From the NCBI GenBank assembly GCA_943331345.2, contig CALQLF020000005.1, forward strand, positions 229 through 64,228: a DNA stretch of 64,000 nucleotides. The letters run 5' to 3'. Every line of letters starts with the position of its first letter. Position 1 is the first letter of the stretch. Under the pieces are notes generated by a model that worked only from the letters and a program-made list of their open reading frames with translations, was not told where the DNA came from and ran no database searches. The translations under genes and the position numbers were made by a program. Positions 12,546 through 20,500 of this stretch are shown here, one piece after another. This stretch comes from Candidatus Planktophila lacus (GTDB lineage Bacteria; Pseudomonadota; Gammaproteobacteria; Steroidobacterales; Steroidobacteraceae).

Positions 12546-13720
12546 AGCCTTGGTGGATAGTGGTTCGCAAGGAGGTTCTCGAAAGCCTTCGTGACCGTCG
12601 CACTTTGTTGTCGGCACTGGTGATGGCACCGCTGTTCGGCCCACTGATGTTCAGCTTCAGCATGCAGACCATGTTGAAGCGCGGTCTTGACGAGCAGGAC
12701 AAGCCGCTGCAAGTAGCGGTGATGGGCAAGGAGCACGCACCTAATCTCGTGCATTGGCTGGAGTCACAAGGCCTGGAAGACGTTCCGGCGCCGAAAGACG
12801 TGGCCAGTATTCCGGCCGCGGTACGGGATGCGAAACCCCGACTGGTGCTGGTCATCGGGCCTGACTACGGCAAACGCTTCCGTGCCGCAAAGGCCGCTGG
12901 CGTTAAGGTCTACGTCGATTCCTCGGACCAAGATTCCCAACGCGATTTCCGTCGGCTGGACCAGTTGCTGCAGAATTATTCGAGCCAAACCTCGGCACTG
13001 CGGTTGGCCGCCCGCGGGGTAGACCCGGGCATTGCACAGCCTGTGATGCTGGATGAAATCGACGTGTCGACCCCGGCCTCGCGTGCACAGTCGCTGCTGG
13101 CCATTCTCAGTTACTTCCTGCTGTTCTCAACGCTCATCGGCGGCATGTATGTCGCCATCGACGCCACTGCCGGCGAAAGGGAACGGGGTTCACTCGAGCC
13201 CTTGGTTTCGTTACCGGTTTCGCGTGAAGCACTGGTAGCGGGAAAGTTTGTCGCCACAATGGCATTTTCGGGCGTGTCGTTGGTGTTGACGCTCGCGTCG
13301 TTCGCCATTTCGCTGCGTTTCGTTCCGTTGGAATCCATCGGCATGAGCGCGAACCTCGGGCCCAAGGTGCTGACAGGCGTGTTCCTTTCATTGCTGCCCT
13401 TCGTACCGTTAGCTGCTGCCCTGCTAACGCTGGTGGCTTCGTTCGCACGCAGTTTCCGTGAAGCGCAAAGCTGGATGACGGGCGCACTGTTGGTGCCCAC
13501 GCTGCCTATCATGGTAGCGGCCATGACCGGCATGAAGCCCACGGCGCTACTGATGGCTGTGCCGAGTCTTAGCCAACACTTCCTGATTGCGCGATTGCTA
13601 CGCGACGAAGCGGTGCCGTTGACGGACGGGCTGCTGTCTGCCGGCGGTTCACTGTTGCTGACCGGCGTGTTGCTGGTTTTCGTGGTGCGCCTGTGGCGCC
13701 GTGAAAAGCTGCTGGGCTAA
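12542..13720 (+). CDS. ABC-2 type transporter permease (NatB-like)
   Basis: The ATG at 12542 overlaps the ATPase stop. It has an N-terminal TM segment, a large loop and a C-terminal multi-TM region. Confidence 0.8.
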   Translation: MKPWWIVVRKEVLESLRDRRTLLSALVMAPLFGPLMFSFSMQTMLKRGLDEQDKPLQVAVMGKEHAPNLVHWLESQGLEDVPAPKDVASIPAAVRDAKPRLVLVIGPDYGKRFRAAKAAGVKVYVDSSDQDSQRDFRRLDQLLQNYSSQTSALRLAARGVDPGIAQPVMLDEIDVSTPASRAQSLLAILSYFLLFSTLIGGMYVAIDATAGERERGSLEPLVSLPVSREALVAGKFVATMAFSGVSLVLTLASFAISLRFVPLESIGMSANLGPKVLTGVFLSLLPFVPLAAALLTLVASFARSFREAQSWMTGALLVPTLPIMVAAMTGMKPTALLMAVPSLSQHFLIARLLRDEAVPLTDGLLSAGGSLLLTGVLLVFVVRLWRREKLLG

Positions 13721-14580
13721 AGGCCCAGCGCCGCCGCATGGTGGCGCAAATGCCGCGCCATGAAAGTGCTGATGAAGAAATAGCCGTGGTCGTAGCCTTC
13801 GCGCCACTGGAAATCCAGTGGCTGCCCGGCCGCGGTGCAAGCATCAATGAAGCGCTGCGACAGCAACTGGCCTTCGAGAAATTTGTCCGCGGTGCCTTGG
13901 TCTACCAACACCGTGCCAGCGAAGCGCTGCGTAGCCACCAGACGCGTGGCGTCGTGCTGCGCCCACACTGCGCGGTCTTCGCCCAAGTAGCCGGTGAAAG
14001 CCTTCTGGCCCCAGGGGCAGTCCATGGGCGCCGCGATGGGCGCGAACGCCGAGACGCTGCGGTAAAGCCCCGGGTGACGCAACGCGAGCGTAAGCGCGCC
14101 GTGTCCGCCCATCGAATGCCCGAACACGCTCTGCATAGCACCCGCCGCGTCCTGCTTTACAGGGAAGTGCGCGGCTAGTAGCGCCGGCAACTCCTGCGTC
14201 ACATAGCTTTCCATGGCGTAGTGGCGCGCCCAGGGTTGTTGGGTCGCGTCGAGATAGAAGCCAGCCGCCAACCCGAAGTCCCAAGCCGCATCGTCACCCG
14301 GTAGGCGTTCACGCGGACTGGTGTCGGGTGTCACGAGCATGATGCCGAGTTCAGCTGCCAACTGCTGGGCACTGGCCTTGATGGTGAAGGTCTCTTCGGT
14401 GCAGGTGAGCCCGGCCAGCCAGTACAACACCGGCACCGGGCCGTGCGCGGCCTGCGGCGGTAGAAATACGCCGAAACGCATCGACGCCTTGCAAGCCGTG
14501 GAAGCGTGCCGGTAATACCCCTGCGTGCCGCCGAAGCAGGCGTGCGTCGAGAGCGTCTCTAGCGAAATGGCAGCAGTCAT
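13717..14580 (-). CDS. fghA: S-formylglutathione hydrolase (esterase D)
   Basis: 287 aa. CFGGTQGYYRH, VLYWLAGLTCTEE and GHSMGGHGAL are hallmark motifs. Confidence 0.9.
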   Translation of the reverse strand: MTAAISLETLSTHACFGGTQGYYRHASTACKASMRFGVFLPPQAAHGPVPVLYWLAGLTCTEETFTIKASAQQLAAELGIMLVTPDTSPRERLPGDDAAWDFGLAAGFYLDATQQPWARHYAMESYVTQELPALLAAHFPVKQDAAGAMQSVFGHSMGGHGALTLALRHPGLYRSVSAFAPIAAPMDCPWGQKAFTGYLGEDRAVWAQHDATRLVATQRFAGTVLVDQGTADKFLEGQLLSQRFIDACTAAGQPLDFQWREGYDHGYFFISTFMARHLRHHAAALGL

Positions 14581-14672
14581 AGGGCGAATTCCAGTGTTGG
14601 ACGGCCAATGTACGGGGCCGAAGCGGGCAGCAGAGCGGCCATTTTGCCCGACGGCGAGGCCGCATGGCAGCT

Positions 14673-15455
14673 TCAGTTCGCCGTATGCACCAGACGAATA
14701 GCAGACAGCGAAACTAACGCCTCGGCCAACTCGGCTAGACCTTCTGCCGGAATTTCTGGCACGGTTTCAGAGCCGGAGTCTGACAAGAACAAGGTCTCGA
14801 GAACCTCGGCCAACGATTCACTGATTTCGCGACACCGAACGGCAGCATCAGCAGCACACCAGAGTACGTAGCAACGCGGCGCCGCCTCGAGTAACTCCGC
14901 CGAGAGCGCTGCCTCGTTGCCACTGGTAGCTTCCGCCACGGCATCGCGCAAACGGTCCACTGCATGTCGGCAACGCAGTACGGCCAGCCCCGGGGATGCC
15001 ACCAATGCCAGTTCGGGCGTTAGCTGCACGGCTGGGCCCGTTGCTTCGGGGTTCACCCACGCCACACGGTCGAGCGCCAGGTCGAACGCTGCCATGTCGC
15101 CAAGCCACGGGTAGGCAGCGCAAGCTGGCATGGCCGCGATGAAGGCGGGCAAGCCTTCGCCCCAACCCGAAAGCTGTGGTGCCGCAGGTGGGTTGGCCCG
15201 TGCGTAGGACTCTGCCAAGGTGTTGAAGAACCCTTCACCCACCAAGGCCACCACCGTCGGCACACGCTGAGCCAGCGCCGAGCGTAAGGCGGAATGCACG
15301 CAGGCTGCGTGTACCGCCAGTGCAGCCTCCACCGGGACTGGTGAGTTCTTCAAGTGCGGCAGCAAGCGTGCAGCAGCATCCGCCGTTCCATGTAACGCGA
15401 ACTCGCTCAAATCCGACTGCCATTGCGGCAACGACAGGGGTGGTACGGAAATCAT
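14673..15455 (-). CDS. bufC: DUF2063 family protein, partner of the DUF692 enzyme (BufC/HvfC-like)
   Basis: 260 aa. Its start overlaps the stop of the DUF692 gene by 4 nt. The N-terminal pattern (LSEFALHG...) and its genomic context are typical of DUF2063. Confidence 0.7.
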   Translation of the reverse strand: MISVPPLSLPQWQSDLSEFALHGTADAAARLLPHLKNSPVPVEAALAVHAACVHSALRSALAQRVPTVVALVGEGFFNTLAESYARANPPAAPQLSGWGEGLPAFIAAMPACAAYPWLGDMAAFDLALDRVAWVNPEATGPAVQLTPELALVASPGLAVLRCRHAVDRLRDAVAEATSGNEAALSAELLEAAPRCYVLWCAADAAVRCREISESLAEVLETLFLSDSGSETVPEIPAEGLAELAEALVSLSAIRLVHTAN

Positions 15456-16348
15456 CCGGGCACCGGCCTATGAAACGCCAGAGGTAGCCCTTCCAGCATT
15501 GGGCCATGCAGGGCAATCAGCACTGCGTCCGCCTGCAGGGCTTCAGCTGCCAGCACCTGCCATTCTGGCAAGTGGTTGTCCCACTCCACCAATGTTGGCA
15601 CTCTGCCGAGGACCTGCACGGTCTCACGGTAAAGTGCCCAGACGGCATCGCCAACCTTCGAGCCGTGGTCATCCAGCAGCAACCGTTGACCGGAGTCGAG
15701 GTGACGCGTGGTGTGGCCCGCCAGATGGATCTCGCCGATGGCCTCGCGCGGTAGTCTGTCGAGAAGCGACTTCAGTAGCGCGGCTGGATCTTGCCCCGTG
15801 TTCGTGGCGGTGACGTAGACGTTGTTGATATCCAGCAGCACGCCACAGCCCGTGCGCTTTACCAGCGCCGCCAGAAATTCCGGCTCGTCAAAATCCTGCG
15901 CGGCGGGCGCGAGATAGACGGAAGGGTTCTCAATCAACAGTTGTCGCCCAAGTGCGTGCTGGACTGCATCGACATTCTTCACCACGACCTCGAGGGCTTC
16001 CTCGGTATAGGGCAGTGGAAAAAGATCAGGCAGGTAGTGGCCGTTCGCCACACTGAAACTCAAGTGATCAGAAACAAGCCCGGGTTCGAGTTCGTCGATG
16101 AGCGCGCGGAGGCGCTGCAAGGAATCGCGGGAGACCCCCGCCACACTACCCAGCGACAAGCCGACGGCATGCAGGGAAATAGGAAGGTGTTCACGGGCAC
16201 GGCGCAGATGAACGCGTGCGCCTGGGTCTAGCAGGTAGTTTTCCGGGTGGACCTCAAGCCAACTCACCCCCGGAGTGGGCTGTAGCGCCACTCCGTGGTG
16301 AGGAAACCGCAGGCCGACGCCCGCGGCGGCCGGAATGCGGCTGAACAA
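15452..16348 (-). CDS. bufB: DUF692 multinuclear non-heme iron oxidative enzyme (MNIO; MbnB/BufB-like)
   Basis: 298 aa. It has GVGLRFPHH, WLEVHPENYL, and the later HLAGH and VEWDN motifs typical of DUF692 TIM-barrel enzymes. Confidence 0.85.
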   Translation of the reverse strand: MFSRIPAAAGVGLRFPHHGVALQPTPGVSWLEVHPENYLLDPGARVHLRRAREHLPISLHAVGLSLGSVAGVSRDSLQRLRALIDELEPGLVSDHLSFSVANGHYLPDLFPLPYTEEALEVVVKNVDAVQHALGRQLLIENPSVYLAPAAQDFDEPEFLAALVKRTGCGVLLDINNVYVTATNTGQDPAALLKSLLDRLPREAIGEIHLAGHTTRHLDSGQRLLLDDHGSKVGDAVWALYRETVQVLGRVPTLVEWDNHLPEWQVLAAEALQADAVLIALHGPMLEGLPLAFHRPVPG

Positions 16349-16360
16349 CGCCGTGGCGTA

Positions 16361-16624
16361 TTACTTGGCGGGGGCGGTGGTAGAGCCGCCCGCGAGCTTG
16401 GCACACAAGCCGGCCGGAACCTTGACCCACTCGCTCGGCAGGCTGTCCTTGGCTGCCTGGTTGGCGCAGGTGTGGGCGCTGTTGCCGCAGTCGTTCTTGG
16501 CCGCCTTGGCCACGCCATAGCACTTCTCGGTCGCCGGCTTGGCATCCTCGGCATGCACCGGCGCCACTAGGGCAGCGAGGGTTACAGCGCCCAGTAGGGC
16601 GGAAAGGGCAGTCTTCTTGCTCAT
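16361..16624 (-). CDS. bufA: DUF2282 secreted Cys-containing RiPP precursor (bufferin-like)
   Basis: 87 aa from the ATG at 16624, with GAAGGA about 10 nt upstream. Sec signal MSKKTALSALLGAVTLAALVAPVHA. The core has EKCYGVAKAAKNDC...HTC...VPAGLC (4 Cys). It ends 12 nt upstream of bufB. Confidence 0.8.
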   Translation of the reverse strand: MSKKTALSALLGAVTLAALVAPVHAEDAKPATEKCYGVAKAAKNDCGNSAHTCANQAAKDSLPSEWVKVPAGLCAKLAGGSTTAPAK

Positions 16625-16833
16625 GGGGGGCATCCTTCAAGTAGGGCCCGGAACAAGCCCGGGCAGGGTCTGTCGATAGACCGAAATGCTAGCACGCAGT
16701 TCCCTAGCGCCTACGGGCACTAGGTCACAGTCGGCCATAGCCTGCCCCGGCCAGTAGGCAGTGCCCCAGAGCCACTCGGCAATCTGCGGGCGCTGCTACC
16801 ATAGCCGCAACCAGTCATTTTCCGGGTGTTTTC

Positions 16834-17556
16834 ATGGGTCGTATTTTTGAAGTCCGCAAGCATGCGATGTTCGCGCGGTGGAACCGCATGGCGAAGCAGT
16901 TCGCCCGCGTCGCCAAGGACATCAGCATTGCCGTCCGCGCCGGTGGCGACGACCCCAATGGCAACCCCGCCCTGCGCCGCTGCATCCAGAACGCCCGCGC
17001 CTTCAACATGCCGAAGGACAAGGTGGAGGCGGCCATCCGCCGCGCCGCCGGCAAGGAAGCGGTGGACTACCAGGAAATTGTCTACGAAGGCTACGCGCCC
17101 CATGGCATTGCGCTGCTGGTGGACACCGCCACGGACAACCCCACGCGTACCGTGGGCAGCTTGCGCAACATCTTCAGCAAGAACGGCGGCAATCTCGCCA
17201 ACAGCGGCAGCGTGTCGTTTCTGTTCCGCAAGATGGGCGTGTTCCGCCTCGCGCCCGAGAACATCGACCAGGACGACCTCGAGCTCTACCTGATGGACCA
17301 CGGGCTCGACGAGATGGGCGAAAGCACCGGCGAGAAGGGCGAACCGCAAATCGTCATCCGCTGCGCCTTCAGCGATTTCGGCCAACTGCAGCTGGCGCTG
17401 GAACAGCGTGGCATCACGCCCATTTCAGCGGAACACGAATACATTCCGTCCACGCCCATGGAGCTGGGTGAAGACGAGGCCAAGGAAGTGCTCGAGCTCA
17501 TCGACAAGCTCGAGCAGGACGACGACGTGCAGAAGGTGTACCACACGCTCGCGTAA
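16834..17556 (+). CDS. YebC/PmpR family DNA-binding transcriptional regulator
   Basis: 240 aa. [28 protein letters not shown] and [14 protein letters not shown] are typical of the YebC/TACO1 family. Confidence 0.9.
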
Positions 17557-17557
17557 T

Positions 17558-17580
17558 GTCGCGAGCAAGCTCGCTCCCAC
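17558..17580. repeat. REP-type palindromic element (GTCGCGAGCAAGCTCGCTCCCAC)
   Basis: Reverse orientation of the 5078 element. It lies in the convergent gap between the yebC-family gene and the RND gene. Confidence 0.85.
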
Positions 17581-17582
17581 AA

Positions 17583-20500
17583 CTACGCAGTTGGCTGCAC
17601 ACCCCGGCTGAAGCGCTTGCGCAACGAGCGGAACAGAATGGCGATGTCGTCCACATAGGTGTACACCGCCGGTACCACCACCAAGCTGAGCACGGTGGAG
17701 GTAACCAAGCCACCCAGCACCGCAATGCCCATGGGCGCTCGGAAGGTGCTGTCTACGCCGAAGCCGAGAGCGATGGGCAACATGCCGGCGCCCATGGCGA
17801 ACGAGGTCATCACGATAGGCCGAGCACGCTTTTGGCAAGCGTCGATGATGGCTTCCGAACGGCTCATTCCATGGTCGTGCCGCGCCACGATGGCGTACTC
17901 CACGAGCAAGATGGAGTTCTTCGTGGCAATGCCCATCAGCATCAGCAGACCAATCAACGCCGGCATCGAGAGCGCAGTTCCTGTCAGTACCAATCCGCCA
18001 AAGGCACCACCAATAGACAGCGGTAGCGCCGCCAGGATGGTGATGGGTTGCAGGAAGTCGTGGAACAGCAGCACGAGGATGGCGTAGACAAATAGCACGC
18101 CGGCGAACATGGCCAAGGCAAAGCTCACCATCAGCTCGCCGAGAATTTCGGCATCACCCGCCGGCAATTCACGCACGCCTGGCGGCAAATTTCGCAAGGC
18201 CGGCAATTTACGAATCTCTTTAAGTACCGTACCGATAGGAGCACCGCCCAACTCGCCGGAAATGATGATGTTGCGGCTGCGATCGAATCGCTGTACCTCA
18301 GCAGGGCCGCTGCCTTCGGTGACCGTCGCCACTACGCCAAGCGGCACTGGGCCGGCCGCTGCTGGGACACGCAACTGGCGCAACGTCTCCAAATCGCCAC
18401 GCGATGACAACGGCAGCGTTACGCGAATGGGAATCTGTCGATCCGGCAAATCGAACTTCGCCAGCGCCACCGAAAAGTCACCAGCAGTCGCCACCCGCGT
18501 GACATCGCCCAGCGCCATGGTGTCCACGCCGAAGCGCGCGGTCAGTTCAGGGTCCGGCCGCACCTGAATCTCGGGGCGCCGCAAACTGGCGGAGGATTTC
18601 AGGTTATTCAGCGTGCCAAGCACACGCACTTGTTCTTCAACATCCGTGGCAGCCTGATCCAGCGCCACCGGATCATCACCTGCCAGCAAGATCTGCAGTA
18701 TTTCCCCTGGCTCGCCCGTACTCAGCGAGGAGCGAACGCCGGGCAGTGCCTGCAGTTCATGGCGGATGTCTTTTTCTATAGCGAGCTGCGACCGACTACG
18801 CGTGGACTCCAAACCAAAATCTACCAGCAGCGTAGCGCGACGGACATCGGCGGCTTGGCTATTGGCGTAGTCGCCAGCCACCGCCGAACCAATCGCCGCA
18901 TAGACGCTGCGTACCTCCGGCACCCGTTTTACGGCTAAGCGCACGGACTCGGCGGCACGAGTAGTGTCTTCCAATGAACTGCCAGGCGGCAATTCGATGC
19001 TGAGCGAAGTGCGGCCTTTGTCGGCCGCCGGCATAAAGGCTGAAGGTAGCAAGCCGGCCAATGCCAGTGAAGCCACGAAGAAAACAGCCGAGGCAATGAC
19101 CGTGATGCGCCGATGCTGAAGCGCTTTGCGCACCAAATGGATGTACCAGAGTTCGATCTTGGTTTCCTGGCGTTGCTCCACATGGGGTGTGAGCAGGTAG
19201 GCCGCCATCATCGGGGTAAGCAAACGCGCCACAAGCAACGACACCAGCACGGCAACCGCGGCTGTCCAGCCGAATTCCCGGAAATACTTGCCGGGGATGC
19301 CCGCCATAAACACGGTGGGCACAAACACAGCCACCAAAGTGAGCGAAGTGGCAATGACCGCCAAACCAATTTCGTCTGCAGCCTCGAGCGCCGCCTTGAA
19401 CGGCGTCTTGCCCATGCGCAAATGGCGTTCGATGTTCTCCACTTCGACGATGGCATCGTCTACCAGAATGCCGACCACCAATGCCAAAGCCAGCAGCGAA
19501 GAGGCATTCAGCGTGAAGCCCAAGAGCCACATGGCGCCAAAAGCGGGGATGATGGAGAGCGGCAATGCGAGTGCCGACACCAATGTTGAGCGCCAATCCC
19601 GCAGGAACCACCACACCACCAACACCGCCAGCAGTGCACCTTCCCACAGCGCGTCCATGGAAGCGTGATACGAGCCCTGCACCTGGTCGGTGGTGTTCGC
19701 GACCTCTCGAAACTTCACATCAGGATGCGCAGCCTGCAGCTCGGCGATTCGTGCTCGCGCGCCATTACCAACACCCACTTCACCCGTACCTCGGGTGCGG
19801 AAGACTTCAAGGCCAACAATAGGCTTGCCGTCGAGCAAGGTAATGGCACGACGCTCGGCATACGTGTCGGTTACTGTCGCCAAACTGTCAATACGCGCCG
19901 TACTACCGTTCGGCAGGACGACGCGCAGAGCGGCCAATTCTTCGACGCTACCCGTGATTCCAATGGTGCGTACGGACTGCTCACCTTTACCCAAAGTGGC
20001 GCGGCCACCAGGAACCTCTCGCTGCATGCGCTGCAGTGCTCGCGATACATCCGCGGCGCTAGCCCCCAGCGCAGCCAGGCGCACAGGGTCTATCTCAACT
20101 CGAACTTCGCGGTCGACGCCGCCCACGCGACCCACCCGAGCCACGCCTTGCACACCGAGCAACTGCTTGGCGACCGTACCGTCGATGAACCAGGAGAGCT
20201 CGCGCTCGTCTAACTGAGGTGCTTCCACGGCATAGGTAAGGATAGCCGCACCGGCCACGTTCATGCGGGACACCACCGGCTCGGTGATGTCGCGCGGCAA
20301 TTGATCACGAACACGAGTTACGGCGTCGCGAGTATCGTCTACCGCCTGAGTGGTTTTTGTCTCGAGTTCAAACTCCACCGTGGTGGTCGACAGACCATCA
20401 CCGACGACAGAGCGAATGTGCCGCACACCTTCAATACTGGCGATAGAGTCTTCAACCTTGCGCGTCACTTCAGCTTCCAGTTGCGAAGGGGAAGCGCCCG

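What the first reader, a model, noticed from the sequence alone, without database searches (positions are those of the whole stretch)
14673..16624. Minimal bufferin-type RiPP operon (DUF2282 precursor, DUF692 MNIO, DUF2063 partner) without the usual DoxX gene or a dedicated regulator
The 87-aa precursor has a Sec signal peptide and a four-Cys core (EKCYG...NDC...HTC...GLC). A DUF692 enzyme follows after 12 nt, and a DUF2063 protein follows with a 4-nt overlap. DUF692 (MNIO) plus DUF2063 pairs are known to convert Cys residues of DUF2282 or related precursors into heterocycles that chelate copper (the bufferin and Hvf families). Described loci commonly add a DoxX-type membrane protein and are often next to metal-responsive regulators. 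Here the next gene is fghA, and the upstream neighbour is a divergently transcribed yebC-family regulator. This locus is therefore a stripped-down variant whose regulation is unclear.
Basis: partly seen in the sequence, partly recalled or inferred. Interest (0 to 1): 0.6.

Follow-up and report, generated by a model that had tools for sequence, protein, structure and literature searches.

The report
Ordinary three-gene bufferin copper-peptide operon
This is an intact, transcribed three-gene operon for a bufferin, an exported peptide whose cysteines are converted enzymatically into copper-binding rings, and its lack of the DoxX gene and of a dedicated regulator is a common, already published layout.

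Summary
On the minus strand lie bufA (16361-16624; 87 aa; DUF2282, 2e-19; Sec signal peptide; four invariant Cys), bufB 12 nt later (15452-16348; NCBIfam MNIO_BufB 330 bits, cutoff 310) and bufC with a 4-nt overlap (14673-15455; DUF2063; model matches PDB 3DEE).

No DoxX lies in the 64-kb window. The one DoxX in the 96%-complete genome scores 18.6 bits against a BufD-type profile (median 175 in operons). NrsF, the anti-sigma factor, is absent from this genome and from four of five other genomes of the genus.

The layout is not unusual:
- Among 75 BufB-relative loci, 21 have no DoxX within 6 kb, and the tree needs at least 10 gains or losses.
- In the same bacterial family, 5 of 15 loci are bufABC-only.
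- Published work shows DoxX is dispensable and present in 40% of MNIO clusters; sigma factors are in 23%.

fghA adjacency is specific to a sublineage of the genus. yebC is a conserved neighbour, not shown to regulate the operon. Lake metatranscriptome contigs cover bufA and parts of bufB. A 60-nt promoter block, conserved only in close relatives, replaces the sigmaF-type motif found at regulator-linked loci.

Verdict: a new member of a known kind, of low interest.

The parts
16361..16624 (-). bufA, the Buf1-type bufferin precursor (87 aa). The predicted Sec signal peptide is MSKKTALSALLGAVTLAALVAPVHA, cleaved before ED. The 62-aa core carries Cys35, Cys46, Cys53 and Cys74.
   Evidence: Pfam DUF2282 2.2e-19. 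The four Cys are invariant in alignment A1. The start codon and ribosome-binding site were read. Metatranscriptome contigs cover it fully.
15452..16348 (-). bufB, the multinuclear non-haem iron oxidative enzyme (MNIO, formerly DUF692). 298 aa, TTG start 12 nt after the bufA stop.
   Evidence: NCBIfam MNIO_BufB 330.3 bits, above the 310 cutoff. Pfam PF05114 2.7e-93. PDB 3bww 1e-38 and MbnB 3e-11. H60, H95, E140, D173, N176, H208, D226, H228 and E255 are at least 97% conserved in 79 homologues.
14673..15455 (-). bufC, the DUF2063 partner protein (PME type 1). 260 aa, 4-nt overlap with bufB.
   Evidence: Pfam DUF2063 2e-12. The AlphaFold2 model has pLDDT 90.8. The only significant PDB fold match is 3DEE, the Neisseria DUF2063 protein.
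16677..16736 (-). 60-nt block upstream of bufA, conserved in the closest relatives (one variable base). It is the candidate promoter/operator.
   Evidence: The block is conserved between the window and L004/L005 (one A/C difference in L005) while its flanks diverge. RNA contigs stop at 16659, downstream of it.
16704..16723 (.). 8-4-8 palindrome CTAGTGCC-CGTA-GGCGCTAG, a candidate operator.
   Evidence: It occurs only once in the 3.17-Mb genome. Coordinates were read.
16676..16703 (-). Two overlapping promoter candidates: GGAACTG-N16-TCTAT (ECF/sigmaE-like) and TGC-TAGCAT (extended -10, 16686-16694).
   Evidence: The rpoE gene's own upstream has GGAACTT-N16-TCCCA. L006 has TGATAAAAT at the same distance from its start codon. 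The motif's genome-wide count is near chance, so this is a hypothesis only.
13717..14580 (-). fghA (S-formylglutathione hydrolase), the downstream neighbour. It may be co-transcribed and is not part of the cluster.
   Evidence: TIGR02821 419 bits. It is present after bufC in L004/L005 but absent in the otherwise syntenic L006.
16834..17556 (+). YebC/PmpR-family gene, a divergent neighbour conserved in synteny.
   Evidence: It is 99% identical in L005 and 93% in L006.

Best explanation
The locus is a functional Buf1-type bufferin biosynthetic operon, bufABC.

Proposed mechanism:
1. BufA is made as an 87-aa precursor with a Sec signal peptide.
2. In the cytoplasm, the BufB iron enzyme, held on the precursor by the DUF2063 partner BufC, oxidises the two central cysteines (Cys46 and Cys53) to 5-thiooxazole rings.
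3. The peptide is exported by Sec and the signal peptide is cut after VHA.
4. The outer cysteines (Cys35 and Cys74) form a disulphide.
5. The 62-residue product chelates copper in the periplasm.

Shown here: the gene content, the conserved residues, the fold of BufC and transcription in lake communities. Inferred by homology to Caulobacter Buf1: the chemistry and the copper binding.

The absence of DoxX and of sigmaF/NrsF is a real, lineage-level state, but it is one of the common layouts of this family. Transcription most likely starts from a lineage-specific promoter in the conserved block 16677-16736, and not from the sigmaF-type promoter used at regulator-linked loci.
For: - Domain hits are above curated cutoffs.
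- The four Cys are invariant and the signal peptide is readable.
- BufB metal-ligand-type residues are conserved in 79 homologues.
- The best solved relatives are 3BWW for BufB and 3DEE for BufC, the reference MNIO and PME1 structures named in bioRxiv 10.1101/2025.11.18.689057.
- All three ORFs are intact. There is one copy per genome in 5 of 6 genomes of the genus.
- Four lake metatranscriptomes hold contigs at 95-99% identity over bufA and parts of bufB, with the highest depth on bufA.
[quoted passage not shown] PMC12452194 states that the central Cys are modified and the outer ones form a disulphide.
- Layout tallies: 21 of 75 loci lack DoxX and at least 10 gains or losses are needed on the BufB tree. 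bufABC-only accounts for 14 of 81 sources and for 5 of 15 loci in the same family.
- In the paper's supplement, DoxX is in 40% and sigma factors in 23% of MNIO clusters.
- The motif GTAAC-N16-18-CG[AT][AT] is present upstream of bufA in 22 of 30 loci with an adjacent sigma factor or NrsF, but is absent here.
Against: - No chemistry or metal binding was tested.
- The RNA evidence comes from assembled contigs of related strains, without strand information, and DNA carry-over cannot be excluded. bufC had no coverage.
- The promoter assignment is by pattern only. The generic promoter scan found nothing, and the GGAACT-N15-17-GTCTA motif occurs about as often in the genome as chance predicts.
- The genome is a 184-contig draft, 96% complete, so a missing gene cannot be fully excluded.
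- The mapping of conserved BufB residues onto iron ligands rests on my memory of the MbnB structures.
Confidence: 0.85

Rival explanations
1. The chemistry is the same, but the physiological role is not inducible copper-stress defence. Having lost the sigmaF/NrsF switch, the peptide would be made constitutively or under envelope-stress (sigmaE) control. It would then serve as a standing periplasmic copper buffer or chaperone, or bind another metal.
For: - NrsF is absent from this genome and from four of five other genomes of the genus, two of them 99-100% complete. One congener, G130, keeps sigma/NrsF and a GTAACC-N16-CGAA promoter next to bufAB.
- Transcripts are seen in ordinary lake water.
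- GGAACTG-N16-TCTAT resembles the promoter region of the genome's own rpoE and of a bepA-like gene.
- PMC12452194 notes that some bufferins may serve other metals.
Against: The promoter match is at chance frequency genome-wide. L006 lacks GGAAC but shares an extended -10-like TGnTAnnAT at the same distance from its start codon. No expression data under defined conditions exist. The copper level of the sampled lakes is unknown.
Confidence: 0.25
2. The minimal layout is only apparent: the lone DoxX gene on contig C27 supplies the BufD function in trans.
For: One DoxX-family gene exists in the genome (C27:34205-34432, 62 bits to PF07681). It lies 270 nt from a contig end, so its downstream context is unknown.
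Against: - It scores 18.6 bits against a profile built from operon-linked BufD proteins, whose own median is 175 and minimum 25.
- It sits head to head with an amidohydrolase, with no buf genes nearby.
- DoxX is not needed for bufferin function in Caulobacter.
Confidence: 0.07
3. The operon is a decaying remnant that has lost its accessory genes and no longer makes a product.
For: DoxX, sigmaF and NrsF have been lost. The buf genes are more diverged from L004/L005 (87-89% identity) than the flanking yebC (99%) and fghA (95-96%).
Against: All three frames are intact, with coupled starts. The invariant Cys and catalytic-type residues are kept. The locus is conserved in four genomes of the genus at the same site. 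Transcripts are detected.
Confidence: 0.04

Closest known systems
Caulobacter vibrioides buf1 cluster (bufA1B1C1D1 with sigF/nrsF nearby; Leprevost et al. 2024, PMC11626156)
   Same: A DUF2282 precursor with a Sec signal peptide and four Cys, a BufB-type MNIO enzyme and a DUF2063 partner, in the same gene order A-B-C.
   Different: Here there is no bufD (DoxX), no sigmaF/NrsF in the genome, and no GTAACC-N16-CGAA promoter.
Caulobacter vibrioides buf2 cluster (bufA2B2C2)
   Same: A three-gene layout without DoxX.
   Different: Its precursor is the six-Cys Buf2 type. The window's BufA scores only 17 bits against the BufA2 model (cutoff 60). buf2 is still under sigmaF control.
GIG operons of Cupriavidus metallidurans and Legionella pneumophila (PMC5413113)
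   Same: A homologous DUF2282/DUF692/DUF2063 gene set, which responds to metals in those organisms.
   Different: As I recall, those operons include the DoxX-type gene and respond to gold and copper. No such context is seen here.
HvfABC/oxazolin of Haemophilus influenzae and the wider MNIO-PME1 'captophorin' class (PMC11252979; bioRxiv 10.1101/2025.11.18.689057)
   Same: An MNIO enzyme and a DUF2063 partner acting on Cys of an exported precursor, giving a copper-binding product.
   Different: Those precursors carry EGKCG repeats and have no DUF2282 domain. The window's enzyme is below the HvfB cutoff (202 against 360 bits).

Membership tests
Buf1-type bufferin biosynthetic cluster | Precursor with a DUF2282 domain | tested here: met
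   PF10048 at 69.6 bits, cutoff 22.4. It is the only DUF2282 gene in the genome.
Buf1-type bufferin biosynthetic cluster | Sec signal peptide on the precursor | tested here: met
   Read from the sequence: a KK n-region, a 16-residue hydrophobic core and VHA before the cut. The N-terminal hydrophobic region aligns across 13 homologues. No dedicated signal-peptide predictor was available.
Buf1-type bufferin biosynthetic cluster | Four conserved Cys in the core | tested here: met
   C35, C46, C53 and C74 are invariant in A1. Exactly four Cys are present in nearly all of about 70 homologues.
Buf1-type bufferin biosynthetic cluster | Adjacent BufB-type MNIO enzyme | tested here: met
   NF050167 MNIO_BufB at 330.3 bits, above the 310 cutoff. 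It lies 12 nt downstream of bufA.
Buf1-type bufferin biosynthetic cluster | Intact iron-ligand residues in the MNIO enzyme | tested here: met
   H60, H95, E140, D173, N176, H208, D226, H228 and E255 are at least 97% conserved in 79 homologues. The equivalence to MbnB ligands comes from the alignment plus my memory of the structures.
Buf1-type bufferin biosynthetic cluster | DUF2063 partner protein (PME type 1) | tested here: met
   PF09836 at 47.6 bits, cutoff 27.2. The model has pLDDT 90.8 and its only significant PDB match is 3DEE. The C-terminal alpha/beta domain is present in the model.
Buf1-type bufferin biosynthetic cluster | DoxX (BufD) gene in the cluster. This is frequent but not required. 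| tested here: not met
   None is found in the window at E<=1. The genome's single DoxX is not BufD-type. The literature shows it is dispensable, so this does not exclude membership.
Buf1-type bufferin biosynthetic cluster | ECF sigma factor and NrsF nearby, with a sigmaF-type promoter. This is an optional feature. | tested here: not met
   NrsF is absent from the genome. No GTAAC-N16-18-CG[AT][AT] motif lies upstream of bufA. Sigma factors accompany only about 23% of MNIO clusters.
Buf1-type bufferin biosynthetic cluster | Cys converted to 5-thiooxazole, and copper binding by the product | not testable with these tools
   This needs mass spectrometry and metal-binding assays.
HvfB/oxazolin system | HvfB-equivalog enzyme and an EGKCG-repeat precursor | tested here: not met
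   NF003818 scores 202 bits against a cutoff of 360. The precursor has no EGKCG repeats.
Methanobactin (MbnB) system | MbnB-equivalog enzyme | tested here: not met
   TIGR04159 scores 61.9 bits against a cutoff of 325.

The most novel reading that the evidence does not exclude
Within one freshwater genus, the bufferin operon has been uncoupled from the sigmaF/NrsF metal-stress switch, which a congener still carries next to bufAB. It now sits beside yebC under a lineage-specific promoter that contains a unique 8-4-8 palindrome and a sigmaE-like or extended -10 element. It is transcribed in lake water, so the peptide may act as a constitutive or envelope-stress-controlled periplasmic copper buffer instead of an inducible defence.
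Probability: 0.3. Interest if true: 0.3.

Novelty: new member of a known kind. Interest (0 to 1): 0.15.

Why it matters
It adds one more confidently annotated Buf1 bufferin cluster, from an uncultured freshwater proteobacterium, with signs of expression in situ.

It also gives independent counts showing that DoxX and the sigmaF/NrsF pair are facultative accessories, gained or lost many times. This agrees with the published landscape.

The only point with some further value is regulatory. Closely related genomes of one genus carry the same operon with and without the sigmaF/NrsF switch, which offers a natural comparison for how bufferin expression is controlled. No open question is resolved.

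Tried and rejected
- The generic sigma70 promoter and terminator scan of 13500-17000 found no promoter and only one terminator-like site, inside bufC.
- Rfam at E<=1 over 13000-18000 found nothing. PADLOC found nothing.
- The fold of the bufA leader is not significant (z -0.39). Across 64 bufA leaders the mean z is only -0.40 (p 0.02, with related sequences included), so a conserved leader hairpin is not supported.
- The bufC-fghA spacer folds modestly (z -2.2) and has no T-run, so co-transcription is unresolved.
- A sigmaE-type promoter reading was considered. The motif's genome count is about what chance predicts, so it remains a hypothesis.
The narrower stretch worked.
- Earlier notes of this scan on neighbouring stretches did not bear on this locus.
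- A metal-related neighbourhood was looked for and not found. The neighbours are a TetR-controlled AcrB-type RND pump, a GST, CoA transferases, mnmG and an ABC-2 transporter.

Full report
**Observation.** The three genes lie on the minus strand exactly as described.
- bufA is the ORF 16361-16633. Its likely start is the second ATG at 16624, which gives 87 aa. An AAGGA ribosome-binding site lies 8 nt upstream, and the closest homologues start at the equivalent Met.
- bufB (15452-16348, 298 aa, TTG start) begins 12 nt after the bufA stop.
- bufC (14673-15455, 260 aa) overlaps the bufB stop by 4 nt.
- Pfam gives DUF2282 (2.2e-19), MbnB_TglH_ChrH, the former DUF692 (2.7e-93), and DUF2063 (2e-12), all above their gathering scores.
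- NCBIfam places the enzyme in the MNIO_BufB equivalog (330.3 bits, cutoff 310). It is below the cutoffs for HvfB, ApyH, MbnB and ChrH.
- The downstream gene is fghA (TIGR02821, 419 bits). The divergent upstream gene is YebC/PmpR family.

**Anatomy of the parts.**
- The precursor has a readable Sec signal peptide: MSKKTALSALLGAVTLAALVAPVHA, followed by ED. In a 13-sequence alignment the four cysteines (C35, C46, C53, C74) are invariant, inside the family motif EKCYG..KNDC..HxCA..P.G.C. Nearly all of about 70 homologues have exactly four Cys.
- In BufB, the residues H60, H95, E140, D173, N176, H208, D226, H228 and E255 are at least 97% conserved among 79 homologues. Its best solved relatives are 3BWW (1e-38) and the MbnB structures.
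- An AlphaFold2 model of BufC built on 30 homologues is confident (pLDDT 90.8). Its only significant PDB match is 3DEE, the Neisseria DUF2063 protein.
- 3BWW and 3DEE are the reference MNIO and partner structures named in bioRxiv 10.1101/2025.11.18.689057.

**Is the missing DoxX and regulator real?**
- The window has no DoxX at E<=1 with an iterated profile built from ten Pfam-verified operon-linked DoxX proteins.
- The genome (3.17 Mb, 184 contigs, 96% complete) has one DUF2282, one MNIO, one DUF2063 and one DoxX gene.
- That DoxX lies on contig C27, head to head with an amidohydrolase. It scores 18.6 bits against the BufD-type profile, whose operon-linked members have a median of 175. It is therefore a generic paralogue.
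- NrsF is absent from this genome and from four of five other genomes of the genus, two of them 99-100% complete.
- The neighbourhood carries no metal genes. It holds a TetR-controlled AcrB-type RND pump, a GST, CoA transferases, mnmG and an ABC-2 transporter.

**Is the layout unusual? No.**
- Among 80 loci encoding BufB relatives, 75 carry enough DNA to judge. Of these, 54 have DoxX directly after bufC and 21 have none within 6 kb.
- On the BufB tree the DoxX label needs at least 10 changes.
- With profiles for all six genes, the 81 sources split as follows: ABCD 37, ABC 14, ABCD with sigma and NrsF 10, ABC with sigma and NrsF 10, and a few others.
- In a sample of 15 full loci from the same bacterial family, 5 are ABC-only.
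- DUF2282 genes occur in 77 of 151 genomes of the family and in 5 of 6 genomes of the genus.
- The literature agrees. DoxX is not needed for the copper phenotype or for the modification in Caulobacter, and the buf2 cluster lacks it (PMC11626156). In the survey of about 14,000 MNIO clusters, DoxX is present in 40%, DUF2063 in 71% and sigma factors in 23% (PMC12452194 supplement).

**Context and history.**
- The closest loci, L004 and L005 (89% BufB identity, lake metagenome bins), share the order yebC, bufABC, fghA.
- L006 belongs to the same genus and has 68% BufB identity. It shares the RND pump, yebC, bufABC and the ABC-2 transporter, but lacks fghA. The fghA adjacency is therefore a feature of a sublineage within the genus, not a functional link.
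- The BufB proteins of the genus form one starred clade. It includes G130, whose bufAB still has an ECF sigma factor and NrsF divergently upstream.
- The nearest outside clade (L007 and relatives) also has sigma/NrsF, confirmed by Pfam. The regulator pair was probably lost within the genus.

**Regulation.**
- At loci with an adjacent sigma factor or NrsF, a motif like the Caulobacter sigmaF site (GTAACC-N16-CGAA; PMC3511200) lies upstream of bufA in 22 of 30 cases. It is also found in 15 of 58 loci without an adjacent regulator. It is absent from the window and its closest relatives.
- Instead, a 60-nt block (16677-16736) is conserved with L004/L005 (one A/C difference in L005) while the flanks diverge.
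- The block holds a palindrome, CTAGTGCC-CGTA-GGCGCTAG, that is unique in the genome. It also holds GGAACTG-N16-TCTAT and TGC-TAGCAT.
- The first of these resembles the upstream regions of the genome's own rpoE and of a bepA-like gene. However, its genome-wide count is about what chance predicts.
- The second is an extended -10 pattern. L006 has a comparable one (TGATAAAAT) at the same distance from its start codon.
- Neither reading is proven.

**Expression.**
- Contigs from four lake metatranscriptomes match at 95-99% identity. They cover bufA fully and parts of bufB, with the highest word depth on bufA. They reach no further upstream than 16659 and do not cover bufC.
- This is consistent with a start just downstream of the conserved block.
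- The evidence is weak. It comes from assembled contigs of related strains, carries no strand information, and DNA carry-over cannot be excluded.

**Mechanism.** By homology with Caulobacter Buf1, BufB and BufC would convert the two central Cys of BufA to 5-thiooxazoles before Sec export. The outer Cys would then form a disulphide, and the mature 62-residue peptide would chelate copper in the periplasm. Gene content, conserved residues, the fold of BufC and transcription are shown here. The chemistry and the metal binding are inferred.

**Verdict.** The stripped-down organisation is one of the ordinary, published layouts of this family. This is a new member of a known kind, of low interest. 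The only mildly interesting point is the within-genus contrast between loci with and without the sigmaF/NrsF switch.

Noticed in passing
L007:4313-5672 and upstream of bufA in L007, L014, L104, L106, L109 and others: The Caulobacter sigmaF promoter motif (TGTAACC-N16-CGAA/T) is conserved upstream of bufA across Alpha- and Gammaproteobacteria. It is present in 22 of 30 loci with an adjacent ECF sigma factor or NrsF, and also in 15 of 58 loci without one, which implies control in trans at the latter.
   Followed up: partly
window 16641-16662 (minus strand); L004 and L006 at the equivalent place: A GC-rich hairpin lies in the bufA leader between the promoter block and the ribosome-binding site: GCCCGG-N7-CCGGGC here and CCGGGA-N6-TCCCGG in L006. 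Many other bufA leaders show a similar hairpin by eye, but the statistical signal is weak (mean z -0.40 over 64 leaders).
   Followed up: partly
G000:C27:34205-34432 (L001:1468-1830): The genome's only DoxX-family gene lies 270 nt from a contig end, head to head with an amidohydrolase. It is not BufD-like, and its downstream context is unknown.
   Followed up: partly
window 26001-52000: The G+C content drops to 0.55-0.60, against 0.62-0.67 on both sides. This suggests an island. Earlier notes of the scan also treat this stretch as an uptake/catabolic island.
   Followed up: no
window 13717-17556 compared with L005: Between the window and L005, the flanking yebC (99%) and fghA (95%) are much more alike than bufA, bufB and bufC (87-89%). 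The buf genes either diverge faster or have been exchanged.
   Followed up: no
BufB tree, loci L110-L121 against the window clade: The BufB proteins of this genus cluster with those of Steroidobacterales-like Gammaproteobacteria and of Alphaproteobacteria, not with the main BufB clade of their own family. This hints at horizontal acquisition of the operon.
   Followed up: partly
L017:5689-6858: In this metagenome bin, bufA reads through into bufB as one 389-aa frame. This is probably a frameshift or an assembly error, not a true fusion.
   Followed up: no
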